Shown: positions 14,662 to 62,072, counted from the stretch's first letter. The stretch is 64,000 nt of DNA from Pseudomonadota bacterium (GCA_014382245.1 JACNKC010000048.1:2032-66031); one strand, 5' to 3'. The notes: generated from the letters alone by a model not told the origin. Program-made: numbers and translations.

Positions 14662-14681
14662 ACAAACCCACCGGCAGGCCT

Positions 14682-14861: not shown

Positions 14862-14917
14862 ATACGCACCTTTTTTTTTACAGGCTCGCGCCTGTCACAA
14901 AAAAGAGAGCGCATCCC

Positions 14918-16033
14918 CTAGAACTTGACGTTGATGTCCAGCCGGGCGCGCCAGTCGTCGTCGTTCGGTGACCCAAGGGCATCGTCGGCCCGCGACACCA
15001 GCAACCAGGGATGCACGTCAACGTTGTCGAAAGCCTTGTAGTGCAATCCAACGATATGCGCGCGCAGGTTTGTCTGCACTGTCATGTCGTCCTGCGAAAC
15101 CACTGACAACACCGCGTCCTGCCCCACGACCTGCCATTGGTAGTAACCCTGCATGTCGCCGACCTCGTTCTTGCTGCCGGCCTTTACGCCCAGCGACCAA
15201 CCGTAGTCCTCGTCGGGCTCGGCCCCGGTGTTGGCTATGAATTCACCCGACATCGTGACGGGCAGGCCGTTGTGGTCGCAGCTCACCGAAAACGAGGGGT
15301 TAATGATGTCGAAGTCGGACAGGAAATCATTGCCAGCCATGTCGGTGCGATTTCCCGAGTTGTCGGCGAATACCGTCTGGTCACCGCCCGGCGTCAAGTC
15401 ACTGTAGTGATAGTAATTCAACGCAGCCTTCACGGCAGCCTGGCCGACGGTGGTCGAGGCCGACACCCCGGCGGTCACAGCGGTCACCTCGTTACCATTG
15501 CCGTTTTCATTGAGAATGTAGGTGGTTACCGCGGCCCTGACGTTGTCGAGTTTACCCAGGCTACCGGCCGAGTACACCAGCGCGATGCCCTCGGGTTGCA
15601 CGTCGCCGTCCCAAACCAGCTCGTTGTACACCGCGTAGTTTTTCAGTACGTGCGAAAACTTGCCCGCCGTGATCGAAAGGCCTTCTGCCGCGGCCGGTTT
15701 CCAGCCGATCCACGCCCGGTCGAGGGCCACGTCCCAGTCGTTGAAGCTACTGCCGAAGGTCTGGTGGCTGCTGTTGGGGTCGTCGGTGTTACCTGTTACC
15801 AGGCGGGCCCCCAGCGTTATCTCGTCATTGATCGAGTAGGTGGCGCCTATGCGAGCACGCACGCGCTCGCGGTGCCGGTCACGGCCTGTTTCCACGAAGG
15901 TGCTTTCGTGGCGCAGGCGGAAATCGCCTGACAGGTCGAGCCCGTCAACAGCGCTGATGGCCGGGATTGGCAGGGCCGAAGTGGCGCCCACGAGCAACGC
16001 GGTGAATGCAACCGTAGCAATGATCCTGTTCAT
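14918..16033 (-). CDS. Outer-membrane porin-like beta-barrel protein
   Basis: Has a signal peptide, alternating amphipathic strands rich in G/Y/D/N, and a C-terminal NVKF. It is the last gene of the Mo-enzyme operon. Confidence 0.6.
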   Translation of the reverse strand: MNRIIATVAFTALLVGATSALPIPAISAVDGLDLSGDFRLRHESTFVETGRDRHRERVRARIGATYSINDEITLGARLVTGNTDDPNSSHQTFGSSFNDWDVALDRAWIGWKPAAAEGLSITAGKFSHVLKNYAVYNELVWDGDVQPEGIALVYSAGSLGKLDNVRAAVTTYILNENGNGNEVTAVTAGVSASTTVGQAAVKAALNYYHYSDLTPGGDQTVFADNSGNRTDMAGNDFLSDFDIINPSFSVSCDHNGLPVTMSGEFIANTGAEPDEDYGWSLGVKAGSKNEVGDMQGYYQWQVVGQDAVLSVVSQDDMTVQTNLRAHIVGLHYKAFDNVDVHPWLLVSRADDALGSPNDDDWRARLDINVKF

Positions 16034-16066
16034 GGTACTCTCCTTTTTTTCAGACGGTTTCGAAGT

Positions 16067-16702
16067 TCAGCGTAGCAGCTCTATTTCAACTCCAGGGGTC
16101 TTGCCCCCGGTGACGTTCACGCTCACCGGTTCGGCCCTCATGCGTTCGTTCCATATCTCGAGTTCGTAGTCACCCGGTGGAACGTTGTCGATGGTGAACG
16201 CGCCAGCGCTATCGGTGACCGAGAAGTAGGGGTTGTCGCGTACCACGACGTAGGCCACCATCAGGGCGTGCAGTTTGCACAGCTGGGTGTAAGTGCCGGT
16301 CTCCTTGAAAGTCCAGGTTTTTGAACCACCCTGCCCCCAGCTTCCGAGGTCGTAGGACTCACCGTCGGGTGAGAACACCGTGTGCTCGGCTGCATCGCTG
16401 TTCACGAATTTGACAGTCGTACCCTTGAGCACGGGCAGTACCCTGGGTACGAACTGCATGTCTTTCTGGTCCATCACCGGTTGTTCGGTCGGTGTCTTGA
16501 AATCTCCAGCTATGGCCTTGATGGCGACGACGGTGTTTTTTACATAGCGCTCGCGCCCAACCACCTTGCCGCTGATGGTTCCGGCGGCCGCCTGTTCTGC
16601 GCCCAGCAACAGCAAAGCTGACATGCCCAGCAACAACGCGGGGCGCAATCGGTGGCCGATGGACGGGCGGGACGAGTAACGATGGGCGGAGATGTTTTTC
16701 AT
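16067..16702 (-). CDS. Periplasmic type-1 copper (cupredoxin, amicyanin-like) protein embedded in a CarboxypepD_reg-like fold
   Basis: Has a signal peptide. Candidate copper ligands are H in AAEHTV and C-K-L-H-A-L-M (C-x2-H-x2-M spacing). Flanking GTISGKVVG and FTIDNVPPGDYELEIW segments are typical of carboxypeptidase-regulatory-like domains. Its start overlaps the stop of the Mo subunit gene. Confidence 0.55.
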   Translation of the reverse strand: MKNISAHRYSSRPSIGHRLRPALLLGMSALLLLGAEQAAAGTISGKVVGRERYVKNTVVAIKAIAGDFKTPTEQPVMDQKDMQFVPRVLPVLKGTTVKFVNSDAAEHTVFSPDGESYDLGSWGQGGSKTWTFKETGTYTQLCKLHALMVAYVVVRDNPYFSVTDSAGAFTIDNVPPGDYELEIWNERMRAEPVSVNVTGGKTPGVEIELLR

Positions 16703-19380: not shown

Positions 19381-19408
19381 GACTTTCCTCTCTTTACTCG
19401 CCTGTTGA

Positions 19409-19993
19409 TCAGGAGTTAGCGCTGCGGCCGTACACCAGGCCCTGCAGCCCGGTCGCGTAGATGTCGTTTCCGTCGGTTTCGAGCACTACCTGCACCAGGC
19501 TCTGGGTGGCGTGACCCGATACGATCATGCCGTGACGGGTGAGGTCGAAGGTACTCAGGTGGGTGGGGCAGGGCCCCATGACCTTGCTGTCGCTCTTGTA
19601 CGAGGAGGCCAGTATTCCTCCCATGTGCGTGCACAGGGTCGAGAAAGCCACCACGTCGCCGTCCTTGCCAACACCTCCGCCGGCCTTCTCGCCGAGCTTG
19701 ATGAGCAGGTGGTTTGAGTAGGTCGCGTTGTCGTCCGGGTAGCGGAAGGGTATCGGTTTGTTGGTCACCAGTTCGTCGAGACCGGCTATGCGCTTGCGCG
19801 GGTACGGGGTACGCGTGGCTGCCACGGCACGGGTAGCACCGCCCCAGGGCGAGGTGACCAGGAGGGTGACGGTGATGGCACCGGCTCCCTCGAGGAAGCG
19901 GCGGCGTGAGATACGGCAGGGCGATTGGCCGGGGTCTGTTTCTAACCTGGCTTCGTGTTCGTCGACTTCGGGCTTCTGTATTACATCACTCAT
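19409..19993 (-). CDS. Tat-exported Rieske [2Fe-2S] small subunit (AioB/IdrB-like)
   Basis: Has a twin-arginine motif (SRRRFLEGAG) and Rieske boxes CTHMGG and CPTH. It lies immediately upstream of the Mo subunit gene. Confidence 0.8.
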   Translation of the reverse strand: MSDVIQKPEVDEHEARLETDPGQSPCRISRRRFLEGAGAITVTLLVTSPWGGATRAVAATRTPYPRKRIAGLDELVTNKPIPFRYPDDNATYSNHLLIKLGEKAGGGVGKDGDVVAFSTLCTHMGGILASSYKSDSKVMGPCPTHLSTFDLTRHGMIVSGHATQSLVQVVLETDGNDIYATGLQGLVYGRSANS

Positions 19994-21210
19994 TCGAAAA
20001 CTCCGTACCTGGGTAGTTCGGGGGGCTCCATGGTCAATTCCTCGCCGGTGAGCGATTCGAGAAAGGCGATGAGATCCTGTTTTTCGTCGTCGGCCAGCCC
20101 GAGGGGTCTTAGCACCGGCGTCTTGGTGGCCGTGCCTGTCAATAGTTTCGCGTGGTCGTCGCCGCCGCCCTGGTCGTAGAAGTCGATGACTTCCTCGAGC
20201 GTGAAAAACACGCCGTTGTGCATGTAGGGGGGCGTAAAGACCAGGTAGCGAAGCGTCGGCACCCTGAACTTGGCGATGTCGTGCTCCTGCTTGGTGCGGT
20301 AGTAGAGTCCCAGGTCTATCTTGGTGCGGCGGTATAGGTCTTCGCTCACTCCCTTGGCGAACTGCTCGAAGCGGAAGGTAATCTGCTTGAGCGGATCATC
20401 GTCGAAGACATCGTTCGGTGGCACCCCGAGGTTGTAGTACTTCTCGTTGCTGAACAGTGCGCCGTCGTGGCACTCTATGCAGCGAGCCTTGCCCTCGAAA
20501 AGTTCCTTGCCGCGCAACTCGGCTGGCCCCAGCGCGTTCTTGTCTCCGAGCATGTAGAGATCAAATGGCGTGTCTCGCTGTACGAGGGTGCGCTCGAAGG
20601 CCGCGATAGCCTTCCAGGCGTCGGGTAGCTCAGGACGCGCGTTACCGAAGACCTTCTTGAACCGCTTGTTGTACTCGGGGATTTGTCGCAGGCGTTCTTC
20701 CATCACGTCGCGCTCACCGTTTCCGGCCACGCCGCCGCGGGCGGCAGAAGGGGCCTGGGATTCGAGACTTTTTGCCGAGCCGGCCCAGAACAGCTTGCGG
20801 TAGTAAGCCGAGTTGATGATGGACTGGCAATTGCGCCAGTGGCTGGTCCCCGGGTAGCCCCGGCAGACCTCGGCACCGTCCTGCCAGCCTATGGCCGGGT
20901 CGTGGCAGGTTGCGCACGACAGGCTCACGTCGCCCGAGAGCCTGGGATCAAAGAACAGCAGCTTGCCCAGCTCTACCTTGGCAGCCGTGATCGGGTTATC
21001 GGCGGGAACCGGCGGCGGGCCGAGCGCCGCAAGGGGAGTGACGGCGCCCGGGCCCCCGTCGGTCGCCGGGCCGGTAGCGGCATCGGCAGCCACGGGGAGA
21101 AGAACCAGTCCCACCGCCGGTAGGATGGACAACAGGCCGGTAAGAATTGCTGGGCCTGCACTTGCTCGTATTTTCATGGCCAGGGAGCTCCTTGTTCTGT
21201 CGCGGCTCAT
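19990..21210 (-). CDS. Dihaem cytochrome c peroxidase (CCP/MauG family), copy 2
   Basis: Has a signal peptide and two haem motifs, CATCH and CIECH. Its stop overlaps the Rieske gene start. Confidence 0.85.
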   Translation of the reverse strand: MSRDRTRSSLAMKIRASAGPAILTGLLSILPAVGLVLLPVAADAATGPATDGGPGAVTPLAALGPPPVPADNPITAAKVELGKLLFFDPRLSGDVSLSCATCHDPAIGWQDGAEVCRGYPGTSHWRNCQSIINSAYYRKLFWAGSAKSLESQAPSAARGGVAGNGERDVMEERLRQIPEYNKRFKKVFGNARPELPDAWKAIAAFERTLVQRDTPFDLYMLGDKNALGPAELRGKELFEGKARCIECHDGALFSNEKYYNLGVPPNDVFDDDPLKQITFRFEQFAKGVSEDLYRRTKIDLGLYYRTKQEHDIAKFRVPTLRYLVFTPPYMHNGVFFTLEEVIDFYDQGGGDDHAKLLTGTATKTPVLRPLGLADDEKQDLIAFLESLTGEELTMEPPELPRYGVFE

Positions 21211-22328
21211 CAGTTGGGTACCGAGCGCCAGTCGGCTATGGCCTCGTAGGGTGGCAGGTCTATTTCACCTACCTCTATGGCGTCGCCCGACAGCGCTTCG
21301 AGGAAGGCGAGCAGGTCGGTCTTTTCGGCTGCGTTGAGATCGAGCGGCTTGAGCAAGGGGTCCCGGCCCTCGGCCGTACCGCCGCCGGCGTTGTAGAAAT
21401 CTATGACCTCCACCAGCGTGGCGATGGTGCCGTTGTGCATGTAGGGAGCGGTCCTGGACACTTCACGCAGGGTGGGAGTCACGAACTTGCCGCGGTCTTC
21501 TTCCTGCTTGCTGACGGTGAAGAAGCCAGGGTCTTCGCGGATAATCTCGAAGCCGGGCACGCCCATGAACTTGGCGAAGGATCTCAGGGTGAGATGCCTC
21601 AGCGGATCCCTGGTGATCTCGGGGTTTCCGGCCACGCCGGTGCGATGGGGCTGGTAGTCGCTCAGCATCGGCCCTTCGTGGCACTGTATGCAGCCCCCCT
21701 TGCCTTCGAACAATTGCTGCCCGCGGGTGGCCGAAGCAGACATGTTTCCCTCGTCGAAGGGCACGTTGCGCGACACGAGGGTTTTCTCGTAGGCCGAGAT
21801 GGCCTTCAGCGTCGCCCCGAAAGACGGCTCGGCGTTCATCGCCGACCTGAAGCGCTTGACGTACCCGGGTACCTGCTTGAGTCGTTCGAGCATGACGCGG
21901 CCGTCCATGTTCTGAAAATGCGACTCGGTGATCGAGTCACGCACCTGCGTCGGCATGTCCTTGCCCGTCAGGCGGCCGTCCCAGTAAAAATAGCGCGCGT
22001 GCGCCGCGTTGAGCACTGACTTCGTGTTGCGAAAGTACAGCGTGCCCGGGTAGGCGATGCCCAGCTGCTGGCCGTCGGTCCAGCCGGCCTCGGGGCGGTG
22101 GCAGGACCCGCAGGCCAGGACCGCGTCGCCCGAAAGACGCTGGTCGAAGAACAGGAGCTTACCCAGCTCGGCCAGTTCTGCCGAAGGGGCCTCGATGGCG
22201 GGCAGGGGACCGAGTGCCCGGGGTTGCGTTGTTGCTGCCGTGGCCCGATCCGCGGTGACCGCAAAACTCAAAACCAAACCGGCAAAGGCGATTCTAAGAA
22301 GACTACTGGGTCTTGTGGACATGCTCAC
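21210..22328 (-). CDS. Dihaem cytochrome c peroxidase (CCP/MauG family), copy 1
   Basis: Has a signal peptide and two haem motifs, CGSCH and CIQCH. There is a 1-nt stop/start overlap with the next peroxidase gene. Confidence 0.85.
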   Translation of the reverse strand: MSMSTRPSSLLRIAFAGLVLSFAVTADRATAATTQPRALGPLPAIEAPSAELAELGKLLFFDQRLSGDAVLACGSCHRPEAGWTDGQQLGIAYPGTLYFRNTKSVLNAAHARYFYWDGRLTGKDMPTQVRDSITESHFQNMDGRVMLERLKQVPGYVKRFRSAMNAEPSFGATLKAISAYEKTLVSRNVPFDEGNMSASATRGQQLFEGKGGCIQCHEGPMLSDYQPHRTGVAGNPEITRDPLRHLTLRSFAKFMGVPGFEIIREDPGFFTVSKQEEDRGKFVTPTLREVSRTAPYMHNGTIATLVEVIDFYNAGGGTAEGRDPLLKPLDLNAAEKTDLLAFLEALSGDAIEVGEIDLPPYEAIADWRSVPN

Positions 22329-53131: not shown

Positions 53132-54649
53132 GTGTATTCTCTCGCGACCGTCATGGACGCCGCCCCCGAGATAGAATCTTCCCCGGACGCCGGGCCCTCG
53201 CAGTTGCCAGCGAACGGGCTCGTGGCATTCGTCAAGCGCGACTGCCCTACCTGCGAGCTCGTCGGGCCGGTGCTGGCCGAGCTGGCCGCCGCCGCAAAAA
53301 CATCTGCCAGCCCACTCACGGTTTACAGCCAGGACGATCCGTCGTTTCCCGAGGGCCTGCACCCGCGCGACGACCGCGAGCTGGCGGCCTCCTGGCGCAA
53401 CAAGATCGAAACCGTGCCCACGCTGCTGCGCCTGGACGACGGCCGTGAAACCGGCCGCGTGGTGGGCTGGCATCGCGCAGAGTGGCAAGAGCTTACGGGC
53501 GTTACGCGGCTTGGCGAGGCCCTGCCCGATAGCCGACCCGGTTGCGGCTCGCTGTCGGTCGATCCCGCGCGCGAGTCGCAACTCAGGGCGCGTTTTGAAA
53601 GCGGCCGCCTGTCGGCACGACGAGTTCAACTCGCCGAACTCGAAGACGAGTTCGAGCTGGCCCACGAGCGCGGTTGGAGCGACGGCCTTCCCGTCGTGCC
53701 GCCCACCGAGCGACGCGTGCTCGACATGCTCGAGGGTACTGAACGCGACCCCGCCGAGATCGTGGCCACGGTGCCGCCTGACCTCGTTGACTGCACGGTA
53801 GAAAAAGTAGCCATCAACGCTGTCATGGCAGGCTGCCGACCCGAGTACCTGCCGGTAGTGCTGGCCGCCGTTGAAGCCGTGTGCAGCGACGAGTTCAACA
53901 TGCACGGCGTGCTGGCCACGACCATGGGCGTTGGCCCTGTCTTGATCGTCAACGGCCCGCTGCGCCGCCGCATAAACATGAACTCCGGCGTCAACGTGCT
54001 CGGCCAGGGCAACCGCGCCAACGCGACCATCGGCCGCGCCCTGCAACTGGTCATCCGCAACGTGGGCGGCGGCCGCCCCGACGGGGTAGACCGCGCGACC
54101 TACGGCAACCCCGGCAAGCTGGGGCTGTGTTTTGCCGAGGGTGAAGAAGACTCGCCGTGGCAGTCGCTGGCCGTTGACCGTGGCTTCGACCCCTCGGCGA
54201 ACACCGTCACCGTGTTTACCGGCGAGGCGCCGCGCACGGTGGTCGACCAGCTGTCGCGCGAACCCGGGTCGCTGGCGCGCTCGCTGGCCGCCGGCCTCAT
54301 GGGCGTGCTACATCCCAAGCTGGGTTTCTTCATGGACGCCATGCTGGTCATCGGCCCTGAGCACGCGCGCGTGTTTGCCGACGCGGGTTGGGGCAAGCAG
54401 CAACTCATCGACCGCCTGCACGAGCTCACCACCGTGCCGGCCAGCGAAATGAGCCGCGGCACGGGTGGCATTGAAGAGGGCCTGCCGCTGCCCGCCGAAA
54501 TGGCCGACCAGCCCGTGGGTAAGTTCGTGCCGGGTGCGCTGCACCTGGTTTTTGCCGGCGGCGGCGCGGGGCTTTTCTCGGTCGTCATCGGCGGCTGGCT
54601 CAACGGCGACGCGGGCAGCCGCATGACCACGAGGGAGATAGGCAGATGA
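53132..54649 (+). CDS. Thioredoxin-fold (CPTC) N-terminal domain fused to a large conserved domain of unknown function
   Basis: Has VAFVKRDCPTCELVGPVL, followed by about 380 aa with no family I can name. An alternative start is the ATG at 53153. Its stop overlaps the next ATG (ATGA). Confidence 0.55.
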   Translation: MYSLATVMDAAPEIESSPDAGPSQLPANGLVAFVKRDCPTCELVGPVLAELAAAAKTSASPLTVYSQDDPSFPEGLHPRDDRELAASWRNKIETVPTLLRLDDGRETGRVVGWHRAEWQELTGVTRLGEALPDSRPGCGSLSVDPARESQLRARFESGRLSARRVQLAELEDEFELAHERGWSDGLPVVPPTERRVLDMLEGTERDPAEIVATVPPDLVDCTVEKVAINAVMAGCRPEYLPVVLAAVEAVCSDEFNMHGVLATTMGVGPVLIVNGPLRRRINMNSGVNVLGQGNRANATIGRALQLVIRNVGGGRPDGVDRATYGNPGKLGLCFAEGEEDSPWQSLAVDRGFDPSANTVTVFTGEAPRTVVDQLSREPGSLARSLAAGLMGVLHPKLGFFMDAMLVIGPEHARVFADAGWGKQQLIDRLHELTTVPASEMSRGTGGIEEGLPLPAEMADQPVGKFVPGALHLVFAGGGAGLFSVVIGGWLNGDAGSRMTTREIGR

Positions 54650-55179
54650 ACGAAGAACAAACGGCCACGCGAACCATACTCGACCCGGGTAACGAGCGCG
54701 TCCCGGGGCAGCGACCGGCCGCGCCCAGGCTCGGTGGCATCGAGGGCCGAACGGTCGGCCTGCTCGATATTTCCAAGCCCCGCGGCGACGTCTTTCTCAA
54801 CACCCTCGAGGCGCTGCTAACGGAGCGCGGCGCGCGCGTGCTGCGCTACGCCAAGCCCACCTTCACCAAGCCCGCGCCGGTGGACCTGAGGCAGAAGATC
54901 GCCGTGGAGTGCGAGGCCGTCGTGGAGGCCCTGGCCGATTGAGGCAGCTGCACGACGTGCAGTGTGCACGACATCGCAGATCTTGAATCACGCGGCATCC
55001 CGGGCGTATACGTGGCCACGGTGGAGTTTGAGCAGGCCGGTCATGGGCAGGCCGCGGCGCTGGGCGCGACCGAGGCCGGCGTGTTCGTGGCCCACCCGGT
55101 ACAGGATCGCAGCGACGAAGAAATGAAAGAGATGGCCAGGCTCGCAGTCGATGGCCTGATGGGGAGAATAACAGGATGA
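54646..55179 (+). CDS. Putative selenoprotein with an in-frame UGA (54940-54942) in a U-G-S-C motif
   Basis: The tracked ORFs 54646..54942 and 54964..55179 are in the same frame and separated only by a TGA. Read-through gives ...VVEALAD-U-GSCTTCSVHDIADLESRGIPGVYV.... Hairpins follow the TGA, and both ends are translationally coupled to neighbouring genes. Confidence 0.6.
54947..54970 (+). other. Candidate bacterial SECIS hairpin(s) downstream of the in-frame UGA
   Basis: GCTGCAC-GAC-GTGCAGT spans 54947-54963. An alternative hairpin, CGTGCA-GTG-TGCACG, spans 54956-54970 with a G-containing apical loop about 20 nt after the UGA. Confidence 0.35.
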
Positions 55180-56204
55180 CACAAACAGCGCCTTACACGT
55201 TGATTGACCCGCTTCTCGGTGACTCGGAGGCCGCCGAGCTGCTCGAGCTGTTCGAGCGTTTTGGCAGCTACGGCATGTACTCAGAGGAAGGCCTGAACGA
55301 GGGCATAGGCGAGGGCCTGCCGCAGCGGTTCGACGCGGCGTTCAACTTCGTCAACACCGGCGGACGTTTTGGCCGCCACGAGGAGCTCGAGGTACTCGTG
55401 GCGCGCACCAACTACTTTCGCGAAACCTACTGCTACGGCGACGAGGTGGCGGCACCCGGCATAGAAATAATGCGCGATCATCCCGCGCTCATCGAGGCCG
55501 CGCGCAAACTGTACGGCCACGACGTGATCGTGCCGGCCATAGTGTACGCCAACGTACTCGTGCCGGGGCAGGAGCTTGCCGTGCACACCGACGTGCCCGA
55601 GTTCCGCGGCGCCAACCGCAAGACCAACCCCGAGTGGCTGCTGGTGGTGATGCACCACAGCGGCTTGTTCGAACAGTGGCGCATGCCTATCGCCACCGCC
55701 GTGGCCTGGTTCCAGCGCGCCGAGGGCGGTGAGTTCGCGTTCTACCCCCGCGGCGCCGGGGGCGGCCCGAGCACGGTGCCGGCCTCGTTCAACACCGCGG
55801 TGGTCATAGACACCGACTCGGTGTTTCACGGCGTGGACCGCGTGCGCCAGACCACGGTCGAAATGCCCCTGCTCAAGCCGGGCATGCGCATGGTGAGCGA
55901 TGGCCCTGGTACGCAACGCTGGCGCGTTAAGACCGAAGACGGTGAGCTGGCGGCGTGGGACTTCGACGAGATCAGGCTGTCGATTTCCTGGAAGGCTTAC
56001 TGCTTTGCCGACCAGGCCGAGCGGCAGGCCTGGGTCGACGGCAGCGACGACATCGATCTCGATACAATACTCGACACGCTGCTCGACGATCTGCGCGGTC
56101 GCGGCCGCCTTAAAGGAGACCGCCCCGGGTCGAACCAGGACCTGGCCGAAATGCTGGTGGACGAGTACATAAAGTTTCCGCCCGCTGAGCAGGTGGCGGC
56201 CTGA
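55176..56204 (+). CDS. Hypothetical protein, possible non-haem Fe(II) oxygenase fold
   Basis: Has H-x-D (AVHTDVPEF) and a distal His (VFHGVDRV). No family was recognised with confidence. Its ATG overlaps the upstream stop. Confidence 0.45.
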   Translation: MTQTAPYTLIDPLLGDSEAAELLELFERFGSYGMYSEEGLNEGIGEGLPQRFDAAFNFVNTGGRFGRHEELEVLVARTNYFRETYCYGDEVAAPGIEIMRDHPALIEAARKLYGHDVIVPAIVYANVLVPGQELAVHTDVPEFRGANRKTNPEWLLVVMHHSGLFEQWRMPIATAVAWFQRAEGGEFAFYPRGAGGGPSTVPASFNTAVVIDTDSVFHGVDRVRQTTVEMPLLKPGMRMVSDGPGTQRWRVKTEDGELAAWDFDEIRLSISWKAYCFADQAERQAWVDGSDDIDLDTILDTLLDDLRGRGRLKGDRPGSNQDLAEMLVDEYIKFPPAEQVAA

Positions 56205-56229
56205 GCTAACCTGCGAGGAGTGTCCCGAT

Positions 56230-57132
56230 ATGCCTGAACTCGAAGTAAGACACCTTCCCGCCGACTCGGCGCCCGAAGACATAGCCGCCCGCCTGGCCGA
56301 AGACGGCGCGGTGGTCATAGACAAGCTCGTCGATGACGCCAGCATGGACCGCCTGGCCGATGAACTGGCGCCGGCAATGAAGGCCTCGCGTACCGGCCCC
56401 GACGAGTTCTCGGGTCACAGCACCCGCCGCACGGGAGCGCTGATAGCCCATTCCCAGGCCGCGCGTGAGCTGGTCATGAACGAGAAAATCCTGGCCACCG
56501 TGGGCAAGGTGCTGGGCCACGCAACCAATTTCCAGTTGCACCTGACGCAGATCATCGCCATCGGTCCGGGTGGCGAGGCGCAGCCGGTACACCGCGACCA
56601 GTGGGCCTTCGACTTTTTTCCTTTCCCCGACGGTTACGAAGTGCAGTGCAATACCATCTGGGCGATGACCGATTTCACCGAAAAAAACGGCGCTACCCGG
56701 GTCGTGCCGGGTAGTCACCGTGCCGGTGACGGCCGTCGTTACGAACTCGAGGACACCGTGCCGGCCACCATGCAACGCGGCTCGGTGCTGCTGTACACCG
56801 GCAGCGTCTACCACGGCGGTGGCAACAACAAGTCCGACGCCACGCGCTGCGGGGTCAACATAACTTACAACCTGGCGTGGCTCAGGCAGGAAGAGAACCA
56901 GTACCTGTCGGTGCCAACGGAAATAGCCCGCGAGCTGCCCGACGACCTGCTGAGGGTGATGGGCTACGCGCGCGGTGCCTACGCGCTGGGTTACGTGGGC
57001 AACCTGGAAGACCCTCTCAAGGCGCTGCGCGGCGAACACGCCACGGTCGAAAGCACCGGCCTGGGCACCTACGAGCAGGCCATCGAGCGAGCCGAGAAAA
57101 TGCGCGCCGAGCCCTTGGGCAAGAGCGACTGA
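56230..57132 (+). CDS. Phytanoyl-CoA dioxygenase (PhyH) family Fe(II)/2-oxoglutarate oxygenase
   Basis: Has the HRDQW (H-x-D), TRVVPGSHR and YHGGGNN pattern typical of PhyH proteins. Confidence 0.8.
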   Translation: MPELEVRHLPADSAPEDIAARLAEDGAVVIDKLVDDASMDRLADELAPAMKASRTGPDEFSGHSTRRTGALIAHSQAARELVMNEKILATVGKVLGHATNFQLHLTQIIAIGPGGEAQPVHRDQWAFDFFPFPDGYEVQCNTIWAMTDFTEKNGATRVVPGSHRAGDGRRYELEDTVPATMQRGSVLLYTGSVYHGGGNNKSDATRCGVNITYNLAWLRQEENQYLSVPTEIARELPDDLLRVMGYARGAYALGYVGNLEDPLKALRGEHATVESTGLGTYEQAIERAEKMRAEPLGKSD

Positions 57133-57152
57133 GCGGGCGGCCGGGCCTGCCT

Positions 57153-58232
57153 ATGAAAGTCGGAATCGCTGTAATCGAGGGCTACAGCTTCACCGATCAT
57201 CCGGTTGAGCTGGGCACCGCGGGACTGGCCGAGGCCGCCGCCAGGGCCGAGCAGCTTGGCTTCGACGTTCTCATCTCGCCCGAGACCGCCGGCCACGATC
57301 CGTTCTTTCCGCTGGTGCTGGCCGCCGAGCACACCAGCCGCATTGAGTTGGCCACCGGTGTCGCGGTTTCGTTTCCGCGCGCGCCCATGGTGGTGGCCCA
57401 GTCGGCCTGGGACCTGCAGCGTTTTTCGGGAGGGCGCTTTACTCTCGGACTGGGCACGCAGGTGAAGGGCCACAACGAGCGGCGCTACGGCGTGCCCTGG
57501 ACCGGCGCGCCCGGCCCGCGCATGCGCGAGTACCTCGACTGCCTGCGTGCAATTTTTTACACCTTTCAGCACCCCGATGACCCGCGTTACTTCGAGGGCG
57601 AGCATTATCGTTTTACCCTGGCCGCCGAGGTGTTCATGGCCGCGCCACTCGAGCACCCGCGTATCCCCTTGCAGATAGCGGCGGTCAACCGCTACATGCT
57701 CGGCCTGGCCGGCGAAGTCTGTGACTCGGTGTTCGTGCATCCCTGTTGCACGCCGCGCTACCTGCGCGAAGTCGTGCTGCCCACGGTGGCCGAAGGCGCG
57801 CAACGTGTCGGTCGTAGCGCAGGCGAAGTGGCGGTGGTGGGCGCGCCCATCGTGGTGACGGCCGACAACGAAGAGGACATGGCCCGCGAGCGCGTGCTGC
57901 TCAAGCGGCGCGTGGCGTTCTACGGCTCAACGCGCTCCTACCACCGCGTGTTCGAAGTCGAGGGAGTACTCGATCTCGCCGAGCAACTGCACGAGATGTC
58001 GCGTGAGAAACGCTGGCGCGAAATGGAAGAGCTTGTGCCCGACGACGTGGCCGATCTCTTCGGCTGCATATCGCCGCCCGACGCCGGCGCCGACGACCTC
58101 GCCGAGCAGCTCAGGGCGAGCTGGGGCGGCCTGCTCGACGTGCTCAACCTGCCCAGCGACTTCCCCCTGGCCGGCGCCAGGGCCGAGCAGCGCGCAGCTG
58201 ATCTCCTCGCGGCCCTGCACGCGGCGGGCTGA
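57153..58232 (+). CDS. LLM oxidoreductase, F420-dependent-type subgroup (paralogue of 46253..47323)
   Basis: The start is set at the ATG at 57153. It shares long blocks with the other copy (LGLGTQVKGHNERRYG, PGPRMREYLDCLRAI). Confidence 0.75.
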   Translation: MKVGIAVIEGYSFTDHPVELGTAGLAEAAARAEQLGFDVLISPETAGHDPFFPLVLAAEHTSRIELATGVAVSFPRAPMVVAQSAWDLQRFSGGRFTLGLGTQVKGHNERRYGVPWTGAPGPRMREYLDCLRAIFYTFQHPDDPRYFEGEHYRFTLAAEVFMAAPLEHPRIPLQIAAVNRYMLGLAGEVCDSVFVHPCCTPRYLREVVLPTVAEGAQRVGRSAGEVAVVGAPIVVTADNEEDMARERVLLKRRVAFYGSTRSYHRVFEVEGVLDLAEQLHEMSREKRWREMEELVPDDVADLFGCISPPDAGADDLAEQLRASWGGLLDVLNLPSDFPLAGARAEQRAADLLAALHAAG

Positions 58233-58340: not shown

Positions 58341-59171
58341 GTGGCAGACGACAGCTATAAGTACCAGGCCCAGGGCGGTGTCGGCGTCATCACGCTCAAC
58401 CGGCCGAAAAAACTCAACCCCATCGACTGGGATCTGAGCGAAGCCCTTTGCGGGCTGTTCCGCCGACTGCGCGAGGACGACGACATCCGCGCCATCGTTC
58501 TCACCGGCGCCGGCCGCGGTTTTTCGGCAGGCGGCGACGCCGAGTGGCTCAGCGGCAAGGCCGAGCGCGTTATACCCGGCATCTCACCGCGCGAGCGCGA
58601 GCAGGACATGCCGCGCTACCAGCGCAAGACCCCGGTGGGCCCTATAGGCGAGGTGATTCGCTGGATTTTTGATGTCGACAAGCCGGTTATCGCGGCCCTG
58701 CACGGGCCGGTGATGGGCGCCGGCCTGGCCTTCGCACTGGCCTGCGACCGTCGCTTTGCCGATCCCAGCACCCAGATGTGTGCTGCCATGGTGCGGCTTG
58801 GTTTTGCCCCCGACTGCGGCGTGTCGTGGCTGCTGCCGCGCGTGACCAGCCTGTCGACTTCGCTGCGCATGGTAACCACGGGCGACATCCTGCTCGCCGA
58901 CGAGTGCAAGGCCGAGGGTTTGATAGACGAACTGGTAGAGGAGGGCGGCGCACTTGAAGCCGCCACCGCCTACGCGGCGAGATACGCCCAGGCACCGGCC
59001 GTGGGCGTTGAGCTGGCCCGCCGTTTTGTGCACCGCTCGCTGACCGCGCGCCTCGACGAGATGATAGAGTACGAGGCCGCGCACGCGGTGTTGTCGGCGC
59101 ATACGCACGACGCACCGGAGGGCACTTCGGCTTTTGTTGAAAAACGCAAGCCGGGCTTCAAGGGACACTGA
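58341..59171 (+). CDS. Enoyl-CoA hydratase/isomerase family protein
   Basis: Has GFSAGGD, VMGAGLAFALACD and a C-terminal EGTSAFVEKRKP. Confidence 0.85.
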   Translation: MADDSYKYQAQGGVGVITLNRPKKLNPIDWDLSEALCGLFRRLREDDDIRAIVLTGAGRGFSAGGDAEWLSGKAERVIPGISPREREQDMPRYQRKTPVGPIGEVIRWIFDVDKPVIAALHGPVMGAGLAFALACDRRFADPSTQMCAAMVRLGFAPDCGVSWLLPRVTSLSTSLRMVTTGDILLADECKAEGLIDELVEEGGALEAATAYAARYAQAPAVGVELARRFVHRSLTARLDEMIEYEAAHAVLSAHTHDAPEGTSAFVEKRKPGFKGH

Positions 59172-59192
59172 CGTAAAGGAGAACAAACGACT

Positions 59193-59501
59193 ATGGCTGA
59201 ACTCAAGGCTGGGACCCGCTTGCAGAGCGCGGTCTGTGACAGCGAGGTAATGGTGATCTCGGCACCGGCGGGTGACGCCGACCTTGCTTGTGGTGGCTCG
59301 TCAATGATCGCGATGGACGCCGACAAGTCGGGCGGCGCTCCCGACGCGGCGCAGTCCGACGGCACGCAGCTGGGCAAGCGCTACGTCAACGAGGCCGGCG
59401 ACCTGGAGCTGCTCTGCACCAAGCCGGGCGCGGGTTCGTTGTCGTTGGCCGCCGAGACCCTGGTGCTTAAAGAAGCCAAGCCGCTGCCGAGCTCTGACTG
59501 A
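59193..59501 (+). CDS. Small conserved hypothetical protein
   Basis: 102 aa with an AAGGAGA RBS and host-like codon usage. The LGKRY...LLCTKPG...AKPLPSSD pattern is recalled from small ORFs next to acyl-CoA ligases. Confidence 0.5.
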   Translation: MAELKAGTRLQSAVCDSEVMVISAPAGDADLACGGSSMIAMDADKSGGAPDAAQSDGTQLGKRYVNEAGDLELLCTKPGAGSLSLAAETLVLKEAKPLPSSD

Positions 59502-59537
59502 AGGCGGCCGCGTTTCGCGCGGCGGGACTGTATCAAG

Positions 59538-61055
59538 ATGAACATCACTATGCTGCTGGAGATGGCCTCGTCGGGTTTTGCCGACCGCGTGGCGGTGCAG
59601 GAGGGCGACCGTGCGTTGACCTACGGGCAGTTGTTCGCGGCTGCCGGTTCGGCTGCGCGCTGCTTGCGCGAAAGCGGCGCTGAGCACCTGGCGTTGCTCG
59701 ACAGCAGCAGCCCGGCAGTGGCGGTGGCCCTGTTCGCATCGGCATGGGCGGGCGTGCCCTACGTGCCCCTTAACTATCGCCTTACGGGAGACGAGCTCGA
59801 CTCCCTGCTCGAGCGCGTTACGCCCACCATGCTCGTGACCGACGCCGAGCGCGCGGCCGATCTTGCCGGGCGCGAAGGCATCACGGCGATCAGCAGCGCC
59901 GACTTTCTCGAGCAGTCGGCCTCGGGCGAGCCCTTGGCCGAGCCCTGGGCAATGGACGGCGACGACATCGCCATTCTTCTTTTTACCAGCGGCACCACCG
60001 GCGCTCCCAAGGCCGCCGTGCTCAGGCATCGCCATCTTGTCAGTTACATTTTCAGCTCGGTTGAGTTCGGCGGCGCGGCCGACAGCGACGCCGCGCTGGT
60101 GAGCGTGCCGCCCTACCACGTAGCCGGGGTGGCCTCGCTGCTGAGCTCGGTCTACTCGGCGCGGCGGGTCGTGCAGCTGCCCGCCTTTTCGGCCGCCGAG
60201 TGGCTGCGGCTGGCCCGCGAGCAGCAGGTGACCAACGCTTTCGTGGTACCGACGATGTTGTCGCGCATCGTCGAGGAGCTCGAGAACAACGGCGCCAGCG
60301 ACCCAGGCCTGCCCGCGCTGGCCGCGTTGAGTTACGGCGGCGGCAAGATGCCCCTGGCGGTCATAGAAAAGGCCATGCGGTTTTTCCCTGGCACTGGTTT
60401 CACCAACGCCTATGGTCTGACCGAAACCAGTTCGACGATTACCCTGCTCGATCCCGACGACCATCGCAGTGCCTCGGCGAGCGACGACGCGGCCGTGAAA
60501 CGACGCCTGGTGTCGGTGGGCCGCCCGCTTCCCGGTGTCGAGTTGCAGGTGCGCAACGACGAAGGCGCGACCCTGGGCGCCAACGAGTCGGGCGAGATCT
60601 ACGTGCGCGGCGAGCAGGTGTCGGGCGAGTACCTGGGCCTCGGCACGCGGGTGGAGGGAGACGGTTGGTTTCCTACCCGCGACGGCGGATCCATTGATGA
60701 AGAAGGTTATCTTTTCATAGAGGGGCGGGTTGACGACGTCATCGTGCGCGGCGGCGAGAACATGTCGCCCGGCGAGATAGAGGACGTGCTGCTCGAGCAC
60801 CCCTCGGTGGCCGACGTGGCCGTGGTCGGCGTGCCCAGCGTCGAGTGGGGCGAGGCCGTGGCCGCCATGGTGGTGGCGCGCGGCGAACACCCGGAAGTCG
60901 CCGACCTGCAGGCGCTGGTCAAGCAACGCCTGCGCTCGTCGCGCGTGCCCGGCCGCATAGAATTCATCAACGAGCTTCCCTACAACGAAACCGGCAAGCT
61001 GCTGCGCCGTCGTGTACGCGAGTTGCTGGCCGACAGCGCCGGGGTCGCTGAGTAG
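59538..61055 (+). CDS. Acyl-CoA synthetase (AMP-dependent synthetase/ligase)
   Basis: Has FTSGTTGAPKA, YGLTETS and GWFPTRDGG motifs and a C-terminal GKLLRR. Confidence 0.85.
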   Translation: MNITMLLEMASSGFADRVAVQEGDRALTYGQLFAAAGSAARCLRESGAEHLALLDSSSPAVAVALFASAWAGVPYVPLNYRLTGDELDSLLERVTPTMLVTDAERAADLAGREGITAISSADFLEQSASGEPLAEPWAMDGDDIAILLFTSGTTGAPKAAVLRHRHLVSYIFSSVEFGGAADSDAALVSVPPYHVAGVASLLSSVYSARRVVQLPAFSAAEWLRLAREQQVTNAFVVPTMLSRIVEELENNGASDPGLPALAALSYGGGKMPLAVIEKAMRFFPGTGFTNAYGLTETSSTITLLDPDDHRSASASDDAAVKRRLVSVGRPLPGVELQVRNDEGATLGANESGEIYVRGEQVSGEYLGLGTRVEGDGWFPTRDGGSIDEEGYLFIEGRVDDVIVRGGENMSPGEIEDVLLEHPSVADVAVVGVPSVEWGEAVAAMVVARGEHPEVADLQALVKQRLRSSRVPGRIEFINELPYNETGKLLRRRVRELLADSAGVAE

Positions 61056-61058
61056 CCG

Positions 61059-62072
61059 ATGCTGACCGCTGCCGAGGCGCTCGCGTGCCTGGCCGCACCC
61101 TCGTGGGCCGAGGATTGGTCGCCGCTCAACGGCAGCAGCCCGCTGGTCATTGACCTTGCAACGGCCGACCCGGCCTTGCCCTTGCCGCCTGCCGTTGCGC
61201 GCGCGTTGCGAGAGCTCGCCTGCGCGTCGGTTGCTTTCTGCCCGACCGTCCAGGCCGCCGACTCAGCGCTGGCACGGGCCGCGGATCTCGTGGTCATTGA
61301 CAGCGAGTCGCTGGCCACCGTAGAGGAGGCGGTTGCCCGCAACCCCATCGCTTCGTTGGTGCTCGTGCAGTCGTTGCGCGCCGAGGGCCACTCATTGCAC
61401 GAGGCACTGGTCGCGGAGTCGCTGGCCTATTCCACCCTGCAGGCCGGTCCCGAGTTTGCGCGCTGGCTCGCGCAGGCCGGCGAGGCTGCGCGTGGCAAGC
61501 CCACCGACGAGGGTGACATCACGGCGGCGGTCGAGGCGACGCGAGAGGGAGAGTTGCTCAGGCTTGAGCTCAATCGCCCGCAGCGCCACAACGCGTTCTC
61601 TACTGCCCTGCGCGACGCCCTGGCCGAGGCCCTGGCGGTGGTGGTGGCCGACGATTCTATAGGCCGCGTTGAGCTGCGCGGTCGTGGCCCGTGTTTTTCG
61701 AGCGGCGGTGACCTGGCCGAGTTCGGCACGCTGGATGATCCGGCAACTGCCCACGCGGTGCGAAGCACGCGCAACGTGGGCAGGTTGATGGCGGCTTGCG
61801 GCGACCGGGTGACAGCCTTCGTGCACGGTCACAACCTGGGCGCGGGTCTAGAGCTGCCGGCCTTTGCCGGCCGCGTGGTGGCCCGCGCCGACACGAGCTT
61901 CGCGTTACCCGAACTCCAGATGGGCCTGCTGCCGGGGGCCGGCGGCACAGCGAGCCTGCCCGCGCGCATAGGCCGACAGCGCACGGCCTGGCTGGCCTTG
62001 AGCGGGGTGACGATTACTGCCCAAACGGCACTGGACTGGGGATTGGTGGACGAAATATGCAACTGGGATTGA
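61059..62072 (+). CDS. Atypical crotonase-fold protein (degenerate half-domain followed by a truncated crotonase core)
   Basis: Residues about 160-337 carry NAFS...CFSSGGDL...GAGLELPAFA. The N-terminal 150 aa resemble only the distal part of a crotonase (ESLAYSTLQAGPEFARWL). Confidence 0.6.
   Translation: MLTAAEALACLAAPSWAEDWSPLNGSSPLVIDLATADPALPLPPAVARALRELACASVAFCPTVQAADSALARAADLVVIDSESLATVEEAVARNPIASLVLVQSLRAEGHSLHEALVAESLAYSTLQAGPEFARWLAQAGEAARGKPTDEGDITAAVEATREGELLRLELNRPQRHNAFSTALRDALAEALAVVVADDSIGRVELRGRGPCFSSGGDLAEFGTLDDPATAHAVRSTRNVGRLMAACGDRVTAFVHGHNLGAGLELPAFAGRVVARADTSFALPELQMGLLPGAGGTASLPARIGRQRTAWLALSGVTITAQTALDWGLVDEICNWD

What the first reader, a model, noticed from the sequence alone, without database searches (positions are those of the whole stretch)
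53132..58232. Coupled operon of a thioredoxin-fold fusion protein, the Sec protein, an HxD..H protein, a PhyH dioxygenase and an LLM oxidoreductase: an uncharacterised redox/oxygenation module
Seen in sequence: five plus-strand genes are linked by ATGA overlaps or gaps of 20-25 nt. The 505-aa first product has a CPTC thioredoxin-like head and a roughly 380-aa body with no family I can name (blocks such as GWSDGLPVVPPTE, INAVMAGC and NMHGVLATTMGVGP). It is followed by the U-G-S-C protein, a 342-aa protein with a possible 2-His-1-carboxylate pattern, a PhyH-family oxygenase and an F420-type LLM. Inference: a thiol/selenol relay combined with two oxygenase-type enzymes suggests a dedicated substrate-modifying or detoxifying pathway rather than general redox homeostasis. 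I know of no characterised system with this composition.
Basis: inference. Interest (0 to 1): 0.65.

Follow-up and report, generated by a model that had tools for sequence, protein, structure and literature searches.

The report
Conserved thioredoxin-fusion plus UGSC selenoprotein pair
The five genes are real and tightly packed, but only the first two belong together across bacteria: a thioredoxin-headed protein with an unnamed 350-residue domain and the UGSC selenoprotein, a major aquatic selenoprotein family whose function is still unknown.

Summary
All five plus-strand genes exist as described, in a marine Candidatus Binatia genome. The proposed five-gene redox/oxygenation module fails its own refutation test. 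In 82 related loci, the UGSC selenoprotein gene (g2) follows the 505-aa gene (g1) in 79; two of the other three contigs end right after g1. The 342-aa gene, PhyH and LLM genes (g3-g5) accompany the pair only in near-identical relatives, where the array runs on into CoA-thioester genes.

The real unit is g1+g2. g1 has a thioredoxin head (CPTC), an invariant linker cysteine, and a body ("X") with no Pfam, NCBIfam or solved-structure relative. X forms a large superfamily. It occurs alone, duplicated, or fused to redoxin or to UGSC in both orders, and four of five distant members checked carry UGSC fused or nearby (the fifth contig ends just past the gene). The Sec codon is TGA in all 80 copies, followed by a hairpin conserved at synonymous sites. 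The motif U-G-S-C-T-T-C is UxxCxxC, as in glycine-reductase selenoprotein B, and is weakly similar to it. Twelve loci place the pair beside selA/selB/selD.

Best reading: an autonomous two-protein selenol/thiol reductase with an unknown substrate.

The parts
53153..54649 (+). g1: thioredoxin-head / X-body fusion protein. It is 498 aa from ATG 53153; the mechanical ORF starts at GTG 53132 and gives 505 aa.
   Evidence: ORF. More than 8000 homologues at 55-71% identity, none with a Pfam domain over the body. AF2 model has mean pLDDT 85.
53213..53506 (+). Thioredoxin-fold head (about residues 28-125), with the CPTC active-site motif at 53243-53254 and the cis-Pro loop VPT.
   Evidence: Foldseek matches to thioredoxins have probability 1.0 and target TM-scores of 0.5-0.72. 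The profile hits PDB thioredoxins at E 4.5e-4. C38 and C41 are present in 79 of 79 orthologues.
53543..53545 (+). Codon of Cys138, in the invariant linker motif RPGCGS between the head and the body.
   Evidence: Present in 79 of 79 orthologues. The redoxin-fused relative P0184 has an equivalent FGCAS. This segment is confident only when the head is in the model.
53639..54646 (+). X body (about residues 170-505): an unnamed alpha/beta domain with the motifs GWSDGLPVVPPT, EKVAINAVMAGC, NMHGVLATT, RANATIGRA, CFAExEExSPW, GPEH and AGGGAG.
   Evidence: 5458 representative clusters in the exhaustive search. No Pfam, NCBIfam or PDB match for 29 diverse members. Body-only AF2 model has pLDDT 80 and pTM 0.79. 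The best Foldseek PDB hits have TM-scores of 0.28 or less.
54646..55179 (+). g2: UGSC-family selenoprotein, 177 aa including Sec99. It overlaps g1 and g3 by ATGA.
   Evidence: PF24696 at 1.1e-39; NF041046 at 145.7 bits against a cutoff of 125. It lies immediately downstream of g1 in 79 of 82 loci.
54940..54942 (+). In-frame UGA read as selenocysteine, in the motif D-U-G-S-C-T-T-C (UxxCxxC).
   Evidence: TGA at this position in all 80 sequences examined. The reading frame continues with a conserved C-terminal half.
54954..54972 (+). SECIS-like hairpin starting 12 nt after the UGA (its first base is the 15th counted from the U). The 8-position stem with a GUG loop has one A-A mismatch in this window.
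   Evidence: 95.7% of cells are paired across 38 distinct sequences, with one compensatory G-C to A-U change. All synonymous third positions inside the helix are invariant or nearly so. The folding energy of the window copy alone is not exceptional (z +0.34).
55176..56204 (+). g3: conserved hypothetical protein of 342 aa with an invariant H137-x-D139...H218 pattern. It is a probable Fe(II)/2OG-oxygenase-like protein and is not part of the conserved pair.
   Evidence: It is not syntenic with the pair outside close relatives.
56230..57132 (+). g4: PhyH-family dioxygenase. It is not part of the conserved pair.
   Evidence: PF05721 at 3.2e-30. No orthologue near the pair in 82 loci.
57153..58232 (+). 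g5: F420-dependent LLM-class oxidoreductase (TIGR03617 family). It is not part of the conserved pair.
   Evidence: 324.7 bits against a cutoff of 278. Start codon checked. Only scattered paralogues occur in other loci.
58341..62072 (+). Continuation of the same plus-strand array: enoyl-CoA hydratase (58341-59171), a 102-aa ORF (59193-59501), AMP-binding acyl-CoA synthetase (59538-61055) and a second enoyl-CoA hydratase (61059-62072). g3-g5 most plausibly belong with these genes.
   Evidence: ORFs. Pfam results. The same order with Pfam labels is seen in the close relatives L083/L084.

Best explanation
The conserved functional unit is the gene pair g1+g2, not the five genes.

Shown:
- g2 is a UGSC-family selenoprotein whose UGA is recoded with the help of a conserved downstream hairpin.
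- g1 is its near-obligate partner. It joins a thioredoxin-fold head (CPTC), an invariant linker cysteine (Cys138) and a roughly 340-residue catalytic-type domain (X) of a large, unnamed superfamily.

Inferred:
- The two proteins form a complex that works as a selenol/thiol-dependent reductase.
- Substrate is bound and activated on X.
- Sec99 of UGSC acts as the nucleophile or redox centre and is resolved by Cys102 (and Cys105) into a selenenylsulfide.
- The selenenylsulfide is re-reduced through Cys138 and the CPTC head, which draws on the cell's thioredoxin reductase or another thiol reductant.
- The logic resembles the substrate-specific selenoprotein B subunits of glycine, sarcosine, betaine and D-proline reductases, which share the UxxC(xxC) Sec motif. 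In glycine reductase, thioredoxin is the electron donor.
- The substrate is unknown.

g3-g5 are neighbours acquired in one narrow Binatia lineage. They belong with the downstream CoA-thioester oxidation genes.
For: Pairing:
- g2 lies directly after g1 in 79 of 82 loci from Binatia, Myxococcota, Acidimicrobiia and others. Two of the three exceptions are contigs that end 17-45 nt after g1.
- No other neighbour is shared by more than 31 of 83 loci.
- Three of five distant X proteins without a thioredoxin head sit next to or near UGSC, in either gene order: L087, L090 and L091/L092. A fourth, P0214, is itself a UGSC-X fusion. The fifth contig (L089) ends just past the gene.
- Natural fusions exist in both orders: UGSC-X (P0214, P0248) and X-UGSC (P0230). 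A Redoxin-X fusion also exists (P0184).

Selenocysteine:
- TGA occupies the Sec position in 80 of 80 copies.
- The downstream hairpin is conserved at synonymous sites and shows one compensatory change.
- Database entries are mostly truncated at the UGA, and true Cys forms are rare.

Relay:
- C38, C41 and C138 are each present in 79 of 79 orthologues.
- The head is a thioredoxin fold.

GrdB likeness:
- Of 14 diverse UGSC proteins, 7 hit GrdB TIGR01917 (best E 1.4e-4), 6 hit GrdF, 2 hit TIGR01918, 1 hits GrdH and 1 hits PrdB. No other non-UGSC family was hit by more than one member.
- For the window's own protein, the aligned region is the Sec motif: UGSC residues 86-134 against GrdB 334-381.
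- GrdB carries UxxCxxC and thioredoxin reduces the glycine reductase system (PMC13188914, read).

Expression and context:
- Metatranscriptome contigs identical to the window span the g1/g2 junction.
- In 12 of about 83 loci the pair lies beside selA-selB, with selD also nearby in 8 of them. L093 has selA-selB-selD-g1-UGSC as one array. This fits the pair being a principal client of the Sec machinery.
Against: - No biochemical data exist for any member. Reviews up to 2026 list the UGSC protein as of unknown function.
- The similarity to GrdB is local (about 45 residues) and far below family cut-offs (16.8 bits against 602).
- X shows no similarity to the GrdE/PrdA pyruvoyl partners.
- No cysteine in X is universal. 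Cys235 is invariant in 29 diverse standalone X proteins but is Ala in 10 of 79 thioredoxin-fused orthologues. Cys251 is invariant only in the fused group.
- The third Cys of UxxCxxC is absent in some distant UGSC proteins.
- The direction of electron flow and physical complex formation are inferred, not shown.
- In this lineage g3 overlaps g2 by ATGA, so co-translation with g3 cannot be excluded.
Confidence: 0.6

Rival explanations
1. All five genes form one dedicated pathway in which the thiol/selenol relay (g1, g2) serves the two oxygenase-type enzymes (g3, g4) and the F420 LLM (g5) in modifying or detoxifying a single substrate.
For: ATGA overlaps and 20-25 nt gaps link the five genes. No terminator-like or promoter-like site falls at any of the gene junctions. 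The same order is kept in relatives whose g3 is 85% identical.
Against: - g3, g4 and g5 are absent from the neighbourhood of the pair in all other loci.
- Two other Binatia-like genomes have unrelated genes after UGSC.
- The g3 homologue of one of them lies more than 3 Mb away.
- The array does not stop at g5. It runs on into enoyl-CoA hydratase, AMP-ligase, a second enoyl-CoA hydratase, LLM and SnoaL genes.
- Metatranscriptome contigs cover g1/g2 and g5 onward but not g3/g4. This is weak evidence.
Confidence: 0.06
2. The pair works in selenium metabolism itself, for example selenium trafficking, salvage or delivery of reduced selenium to selenophosphate synthetase, rather than on an external substrate.
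For: The pair lies beside selA-selB in 12 of about 83 loci, with selD also nearby in 8. One locus has a selA-selB-selD-g1-UGSC array. Weak Foldseek similarity exists between part of X and the N-domains of PurM-like proteins, including SelD and HypE (E 0.07-0.4).
Against: Selenoprotein genes often sit next to sel genes simply because they are the main client (own knowledge). About 85% of loci, including this window, have no sel gene nearby. The Foldseek probabilities are low (0.2-0.4) and the TM-scores are about 0.15. A trafficking protein that itself requires Sec would be circular.
Confidence: 0.12
3. The pair is a general antioxidant or protein-repair system, such as a peroxidase or a disulfide or sulfoxide reductase. 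UGSC would be the catalytic selenol, the thioredoxin head would recycle it, and X would be a scaffold or specificity domain, by analogy with thioredoxin-fused methionine sulfoxide reductases.
For: - Neighbours are housekeeping-type and vary between lineages.
- Conservation is very high, at 55-70% identity across phyla.
- X is fused to redoxin/AhpC-type domains in relatives.
- The family is very abundant in oxic surface waters (PMC2398784).
Against: A 340-residue domain with many invariant polar residues (D184, T264, R295, R302, E336) looks like an enzyme, not a scaffold. No similarity to peroxiredoxin, GPx or Msr catalytic domains was found in X or UGSC.
Confidence: 0.2

Closest known systems
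UGSC family (seleno)protein (Pfam PF24696, NCBIfam NF041046), the 'UGSC-containing protein' of the marine selenoproteome surveys
   Same: g2 scores above both curated cut-offs. It has the in-frame UGA in the D-U-G-S-C motif and a downstream hairpin. [quoted passage not shown]
   Different: Nothing about g2 differs from the family; it is an ordinary member. The family itself has no known function. Its near-obligate partner gene (g1/X) is not named in any library or in any paper that I could read. A 'UGSC/Unknown_1' fusion was mentioned in 2008 and may be the same domain, but the figure is an image and could not be checked.
Substrate-specific selenoprotein B subunits of glycine, sarcosine, betaine and D-proline reductases (GrdB, GrdF, GrdH, PrdB; PF07355)
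   Same: Both have Sec in a UxxC(xxC) motif at the same aligned position, and the local sequence similarity recurs across the UGSC family. Both work with a second, larger subunit encoded next door. In glycine reductase, thioredoxin is the reductant (PMC13188914).
   Different: - UGSC is about 175 aa, against 240-436 aa.
- Scores are far below family thresholds.
- The partner X is unrelated in sequence to the pyruvoyl proproteins GrdE/PrdA.
- No GrdA, GrdC or GrdD was seen in the flanks examined.
- Judged from the MAG names and sample sources, the hosts are mostly aerobic aquatic or soil lineages rather than amino-acid-fermenting anaerobes.
Thioredoxin-fused redox enzymes (for example Trx-MsrA-MsrB of Neisseria PilB; own knowledge)
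   Same: An N-terminal thioredoxin-fold domain with a CxxC motif is fused to the enzyme it is presumed to recycle. In relatives the same body occurs unfused, or fused to a different thiol-redox domain.
   Different: The catalytic body is an unrelated, unnamed fold, and a separate selenoprotein subunit is always present.

Membership tests
UGSC family (PF24696 / NF041046) | HMM score above the curated cut-off | tested here: met
   Pfam 136.7 bits against a cutoff of 25; NCBIfam 145.7 bits against a cutoff of 125.
UGSC family (PF24696 / NF041046) | In-frame UGA (or Cys) in the U-G-S-C motif | tested here: met
   TGA at 54940-54942 reads D-U-G-S-C. TGA occupies this position in 80 of 80 homologous loci.
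UGSC family (PF24696 / NF041046) | Bacterial SECIS-type hairpin shortly after the UGA | tested here: met
   The helix spans columns 15-22 and 26-33 with a GUG loop. It is 95.7% paired in 38 distinct sequences, has one compensatory change, and its synonymous sites are nearly invariant. The window copy alone has an unremarkable folding energy.
Selenoprotein B of glycine/sarcosine/betaine/D-proline reductases (PF07355; TIGR01917, TIGR01918, TIGR04483) | HMM score above the family cut-off | tested here: not met
   16.8-18.7 bits against cut-offs of 602-800. There is no Pfam GRDB hit even at E up to 10.
Selenoprotein B of glycine/sarcosine/betaine/D-proline reductases | Sec in a UxxCxxC motif | tested here: met
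   The motif is U99-G-S-C102-T-T-C105. The local alignment places it on GrdB positions 334-381. The hit recurs in 7 of 14 diverse UGSC proteins.
Selenoprotein B of glycine/sarcosine/betaine/D-proline reductases | Partner pyruvoyl proprotein of the GrdE/PrdA family (PF09338) encoded alongside | tested here: not met
   The partner is X. It shows no Pfam or NCBIfam hit of any kind in 29 diverse members at E up to 0.1.
Selenoprotein B of glycine/sarcosine/betaine/D-proline reductases | Self-cleavage of the partner to a pyruvoyl group; reductive C-N cleavage activity | not testable with these tools
   This needs protein chemistry.
Thioredoxin fold (head of g1) | Thioredoxin fold with CxxC at the helix N-terminus and a cis-Pro loop | tested here: met
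   Foldseek probability 1.0 to many thioredoxins, with target TM-scores up to 0.72. CPTC and VPT are invariant. Sequence HMM scores stay below the thioredoxin family cut-offs (17.7 bits against 96.8).
   Only g1+g2 are conserved together, in 79 of 82 loci. g3-g5 accompany them only in relatives whose g3 is 85% identical.
PhyH dioxygenase (g4) and TIGR03617 F420-dependent LLM (g5) | HMM score above the curated cut-off | tested here: met
   PF05721 at 106.5 bits against a cutoff of 22; TIGR03617 at 324.7 bits against a cutoff of 278.
Fe(II)/2-oxoglutarate oxygenase (g3) | HxD...H facial triad and a family HMM match | tested here: inconclusive
   H137, D139 and H218 are invariant in 23 homologues. 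PF13640 scores only 19 bits against a cutoff of 27.

The most novel reading that the evidence does not exclude
X is a previously unrecognised catalytic fold. Together with the GrdB-like UGSC subunit it would form a new class of selenocysteine-dependent reductase, using selenium as a nucleophile on a small-molecule substrate and recycled by a built-in thioredoxin. That would explain why one of the most abundant selenoprotein families of aquatic bacteria exists, and why Sec machinery is kept in lineages such as Ilumatobacteraceae and Binatia.
Probability: 0.35. Interest if true: 0.8.

Novelty: new variant of a known kind. Interest (0 to 1): 0.55.

Why it matters
The UGSC protein has been listed since 2007-2008 as a major aquatic selenoprotein of unknown function. 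In the Global Ocean Sampling data there were 255 Sec forms against 21 Cys forms.

This work shows that UGSC almost never occurs alone. It is coupled, by gene adjacency or by fusion, to one large unnamed domain. That domain is often equipped with its own thioredoxin-type recycling module and is sometimes placed inside the sel operon. The Sec motif matches that of glycine-reductase selenoprotein B.

Together these points turn an orphan selenoprotein into a defined two-component enzyme candidate that can be expressed, assayed and deleted. They also correct routine annotation. Gene callers split UGSC into two ORFs, label g1 only as a 'thioredoxin family protein', and leave a domain with more than 5000 sequence clusters without a family.

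Tried and rejected
1. Naming the g1 body by sequence. Pfam, NCBIfam and PDB searches gave nothing recurrent. This held for single sequences, for the 40-sequence profile and for 29 diverse X proteins. The only PDB hits were a short AGGxG-type segment of HisF (E 0.003) and, for the full protein, thioredoxins.

2. Naming the body by fold.
   - The full-length AF2 model matched only thioredoxins.
   - The body-only model gave marginal, non-global matches. The best was the class I fumarate hydratase alpha domain (E 9e-4, TM 0.23-0.28, rmsd about 15 A). The others were Toblerone-fold cyclic amide hydrolases and PurM-like N-domains.
   - There was nothing in BFVD. I treat the fold as unassigned.

3. 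An Fe-S cluster site like that of class I fumarate hydratase. Rejected as unsupported, because no set of three cysteines is conserved across the X superfamily.

4. Cys235 (NAVMAGC) as a universal catalytic cysteine. Rejected, because it is Ala in 10 of 79 orthologues.

5. X as a GrdE/PrdA-type pyruvoyl proenzyme, or an ArgJ-like self-cleaving protein (suggested by the ATT motif). There is no sequence or fold support, so this remains an untested idea.

6. Conserved neighbours beyond the pair. Flavin reductase, a metallo-beta-lactamase-fold protein, an alpha/beta hydrolase, MutY and SufB recur only within Acidimicrobiia, in 31 or fewer of 83 loci. This is lineage synteny.

7. Checking that the 2008 'Unknown_1' fusion domain is X. 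The figure panel is an image, and the stored sequence file (which was cut when stored) does not contain the X motifs.

8. Thermodynamic significance of the SECIS hairpin in the window copy. It is not significant (z +0.34). The case rests on conservation across loci.

9. Rfam and tRNA scans of the window found nothing.

Full report
**Observation**

The window belongs to a marine Candidatus Binatia bacterium. A public MAG contig (L003) is 97% identical over g1. The stretch is held by marine, hydrothermal-vent and subsurface metagenomes.

The five plus-strand ORFs are present as described:
- g1 runs 53132-54649. Public gene models start at ATG 53153.
- g2 runs 54646-55179, with an in-frame TGA at 54940-54942.
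- g3 runs 55176-56204.
- g4 runs 56230-57132.
- g5 runs 57153-58232 (start checked).

The g1/g2 and g2/g3 junctions are ATGA overlaps. The other two gaps are 25 and 20 nt.

The family assignments hold:
- g2 is a UGSC-family selenoprotein (PF24696 at 1.1e-39; NF041046 at 145.7 bits, cutoff 125).
- g4 is a PhyH dioxygenase.
- g5 is a TIGR03617 F420-dependent LLM.
- g3 has only a sub-threshold 2OG-oxygenase match, but H137, D139 and H218 are invariant in its family.
- The g1 head is a thioredoxin fold with CPTC.
- The g1 body matches nothing in Pfam, NCBIfam or PDB sequences.

**Is it one module?**

No. I fetched 80 loci that encode a g1 relative from species-representative genomes, plus two from metagenome assemblies. 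They come from Binatia, Myxococcota/'Deltaproteobacteria' and many Acidimicrobiia, especially Ilumatobacteraceae. I then searched all of them with the five products and the flanking genes.
- g2 lies immediately downstream of g1 in 79 of 82 loci. Of the three exceptions, two contigs end 17 and 45 nt after g1, and one (L028) has 1 kb of downstream sequence without the motif.
- g3 and g4 are found next to the pair in none of them.
- LLM paralogues appear only at scattered distances and on either strand.
- An unsupervised clustering of all ORFs within about 7 kb of the pair confirms this. The only near-universal real families are g1 (83 of 83 loci) and UGSC. UGSC is recovered in 69 loci only because a 90-aa length filter was applied to its N-terminal half. 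The next most frequent real neighbours reach at most 31 of 83 loci and reflect synteny inside Acidimicrobiia: flavin reductase, a metallo-beta-lactamase-fold protein, an alpha/beta hydrolase, MutY, MaoC and SufB.

g3 belongs to its own large family of hypothetical proteins.
- In relatives whose g3 is 85% identical, the window's whole arrangement is kept. It extends well past g5: enoyl-CoA hydratase, a 102-aa ORF, acyl-CoA synthetase, a second enoyl-CoA hydratase, a second LLM and SnoaL.
- In more distant genomes the g3 homologue is elsewhere. One example is on the same 8.1-Mb contig as a g1/g2 pair but more than 3 Mb away.

So the five genes are a lineage-specific juxtaposition. The conserved pair sits upstream of a longer oxygenase and CoA-thioester cluster. 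There is no promoter-like or terminator-like site at any of the gene junctions, so they may still be co-transcribed here. Metatranscriptome contigs identical to the window span the g1/g2 junction and cover g5 onward but not g3/g4. This is only weak evidence.

**The pair: g2**

g2 is a typical UGSC protein.
- The Sec codon is TGA in all 80 copies examined, within the nearly invariant motif (V/I)EALAD-U-GSC(T/V/A)(S/T)CS(V/L)HD.
- Starting 12 nt after the UGA there is an 8-position helix with a GUG loop.
- It is paired in 95.7% of cells across 38 distinct sequences. It shows one compensatory G-C to A-U change made by two synonymous substitutions.
- Every synonymous third-codon position inside the helix is invariant or nearly so, while those just upstream vary freely.
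- This is the expected signature of a bacterial SECIS. The window copy alone has an unremarkable folding energy.
- Public protein sets mostly hold the N-terminal 98 residues, cut at the UGA. A few true Cys forms exist.

**The pair: g1**

g1 has more than 8000 detectable homologues at 55-71% identity. Sources label them 'thioredoxin family protein' or 'hypothetical'.
- AF2 gives a confident model: pLDDT 85 for the full protein, and pLDDT 80 with pTM 0.79 for the body alone.
- The head matches thioredoxins.
- The body has no convincing structural relative. The best PDB hit is the class I fumarate hydratase alpha domain, at E 9e-4 but TM 0.23-0.28. There is nothing in BFVD.

Conservation among 79 orthologues:
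- C38, C41 (CPTC), C138 (linker RPGCGS), C251, H258 and H411 are each present in 79 of 79.
- C333 is present in 78 of 79.
- C235 is present in 69 of 79 and is Ala in the other ten.

**The X superfamily**

An exhaustive profile-free search with the body alone finds 5458 representative clusters. They include:
- standalone X proteins of about 350 aa;
- tandem duplications of about 710 aa;
- a Redoxin/AhpC-X fusion;
- fusions with UGSC in both orders.

Neighbourhoods of five distant members were read:
- A standalone X lies directly after a Sec-UGSC gene in L087.
- A Cys-UGSC gene is flanked by X genes in L090.
- A Sec-UGSC to X operon, with a further X paralogue nearby, is seen in L091/L092.
- P0214 is itself a UGSC-X fusion.
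- The contig of the Redoxin-X fusion P0184 (L089) ends just past the gene and is uninformative.

Across 29 diverse X proteins the invariant residues are D184, P191, C235, T264, G275, N297, G301-R302-A303, G351 and G476 in g1 numbering. A further six invariant-column residues were not mapped onto g1. R295, E336 and P342-W343 are nearly invariant. This pattern suggests an enzyme active site rather than a scaffold. No Pfam, NCBIfam or PDB family recurs even at E 0.1.

**What it works like**

The window's motif U-G-S-C-T-T-C is UxxCxxC, the motif of glycine reductase selenoprotein B (PMC13188914).
- The NCBIfam models for GrdF and GrdB align to UGSC residues 86-134, exactly over the Sec motif.
- Among 14 diverse UGSC proteins, 7 hit GrdB (best E 1.4e-4), 6 hit GrdF, 2 hit the generic selenoprotein-B model, 1 hits GrdH and 1 hits PrdB. 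No other non-UGSC family was hit by more than one member.
- The scores are far below membership thresholds. I therefore read this as distant, local homology of the Sec-bearing element, not membership.

In the Grd and Prd enzymes, the Sec subunit works with a second subunit that holds the substrate. In glycine reductase the oxidised selenium/sulfur centre is re-reduced by thioredoxin. The g1/g2 pair has the same three ingredients: a Sec subunit, a larger partner and a thioredoxin. However, the partner is unrelated and the thioredoxin is built in.

My best-supported mechanism has four steps:
1. Substrate binds on X.
2. Sec99 attacks the substrate or is oxidised.
3. Cys102 (and Cys105) resolve the product to a selenenylsulfide.
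4. Cys138 and CPTC return the electrons.

The pairing, the Sec recoding and the conservation are shown. Complex formation, electron flow and chemistry are inferred. The substrate is unknown.

**Rivals**

- Selenium metabolism. In 12 of about 83 loci the pair lies beside selA-selB, with selD also nearby in 8 of them. One locus has a selA-selB-selD-g1-UGSC array. This most simply means the pair is the main client of the Sec machinery in those genomes, but it keeps a selenium-metabolism role alive.
- Antioxidant or repair role. The variable housekeeping neighbourhoods and the redoxin fusions fit this reading.
- The five-gene pathway. It fails the synteny test.

**Comparison with the literature**

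Surveys from 2007 to 2026 list the UGSC-containing protein as a prominent aquatic selenoprotein of unknown function. The 2008 ocean survey mentions a fusion of UGSC with a conserved 'Unknown_1' domain. This is probably X, but the figure could not be read. I found no description of the near-obligate X partner, its thioredoxin or redoxin fusions, its superfamily or the link to sel operons.

**Verdict**

- The true feature is an ordinary member of a very widespread but uncharacterised two-gene selenoprotein system.
- It is best described as a new variant of selenoprotein-B-type, thioredoxin-recycled reductases.

Noticed in passing
L093:1-5543; also L010, L027, L036, L037, L041, L050, L068, L075 (upstream of the pair) and L024, L072 (downstream): The Sec machinery genes selA-selB lie directly beside the g1/UGSC pair in 12 of about 83 loci, with selD also nearby in 8 of them. 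In L093 the five genes selA, selB, selD, g1 and UGSC form one tightly packed plus-strand array.
   Followed up: partly
window 58341-62072, continuing beyond; L084:5024-10102: The plus-strand array does not end at g5. It continues with enoyl-CoA hydratase, a conserved 102-aa ORF with no Pfam match (59193-59501), an AMP-binding acyl-CoA synthetase and a second enoyl-CoA hydratase. In the close relative it also includes a second LLM and a SnoaL-like protein. This looks like a CoA-thioester oxidation cluster, to which g3-g5 probably belong.
   Followed up: partly
window 55176-56204: g3 represents a large family of conserved hypothetical proteins (more than 2600 homologues) with no Pfam domain. H137-x-D139 and H218 are invariant, which suggests an unrecognised Fe(II)/2OG-oxygenase-like family. 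Its neighbours differ between genomes.
   Followed up: partly
L001:9455-9976, L083:7471-8004, L087:1029-1577, L091:8291-8827 and most database entries: Public gene calls split the UGSC selenoprotein at its UGA into two ORFs of about 98 and about 71-76 aa. Fusion proteins are likewise truncated (P0230) or begun (P0248) at the Sec codon.
   Followed up: yes
L090:5675-5932: A locus with a Cys-form UGSC and X genes that lack a thioredoxin head carries an 85-aa ORF with a CPDC motif between UGSC and a tandem-X gene. It may stand in for the missing thioredoxin head. It has no Pfam match.
   Followed up: partly
L010, L035, L065, L066, L077 (record titles): Several aquatic MAG contigs that carry the Acidimicrobiia-type pair are titled 'Bifidobacterium breve' or 'Bifidobacterium sp.' in their records. 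Given their gene content and similarity to the Ilumatobacteraceae loci, these look like taxonomic mislabels.
   Followed up: no
L001:11235-12772 and L002:13484-15027: In two other Binatia-like genomes, a different PhyH paralogue with a TetR regulator and a DUF2855 gene lies 2-4 kb downstream of the pair on the opposite strand. It is not an orthologue of g4 (no tblastn hit at 1e-5). The recurrence is probably chance in PhyH-rich genomes.
   Followed up: no
window 14001-22000: G+C falls to 0.595-0.625, against about 0.65-0.69 in the rest of the window. This could be an island or a differently composed gene set. I did not examine it.
   Followed up: no
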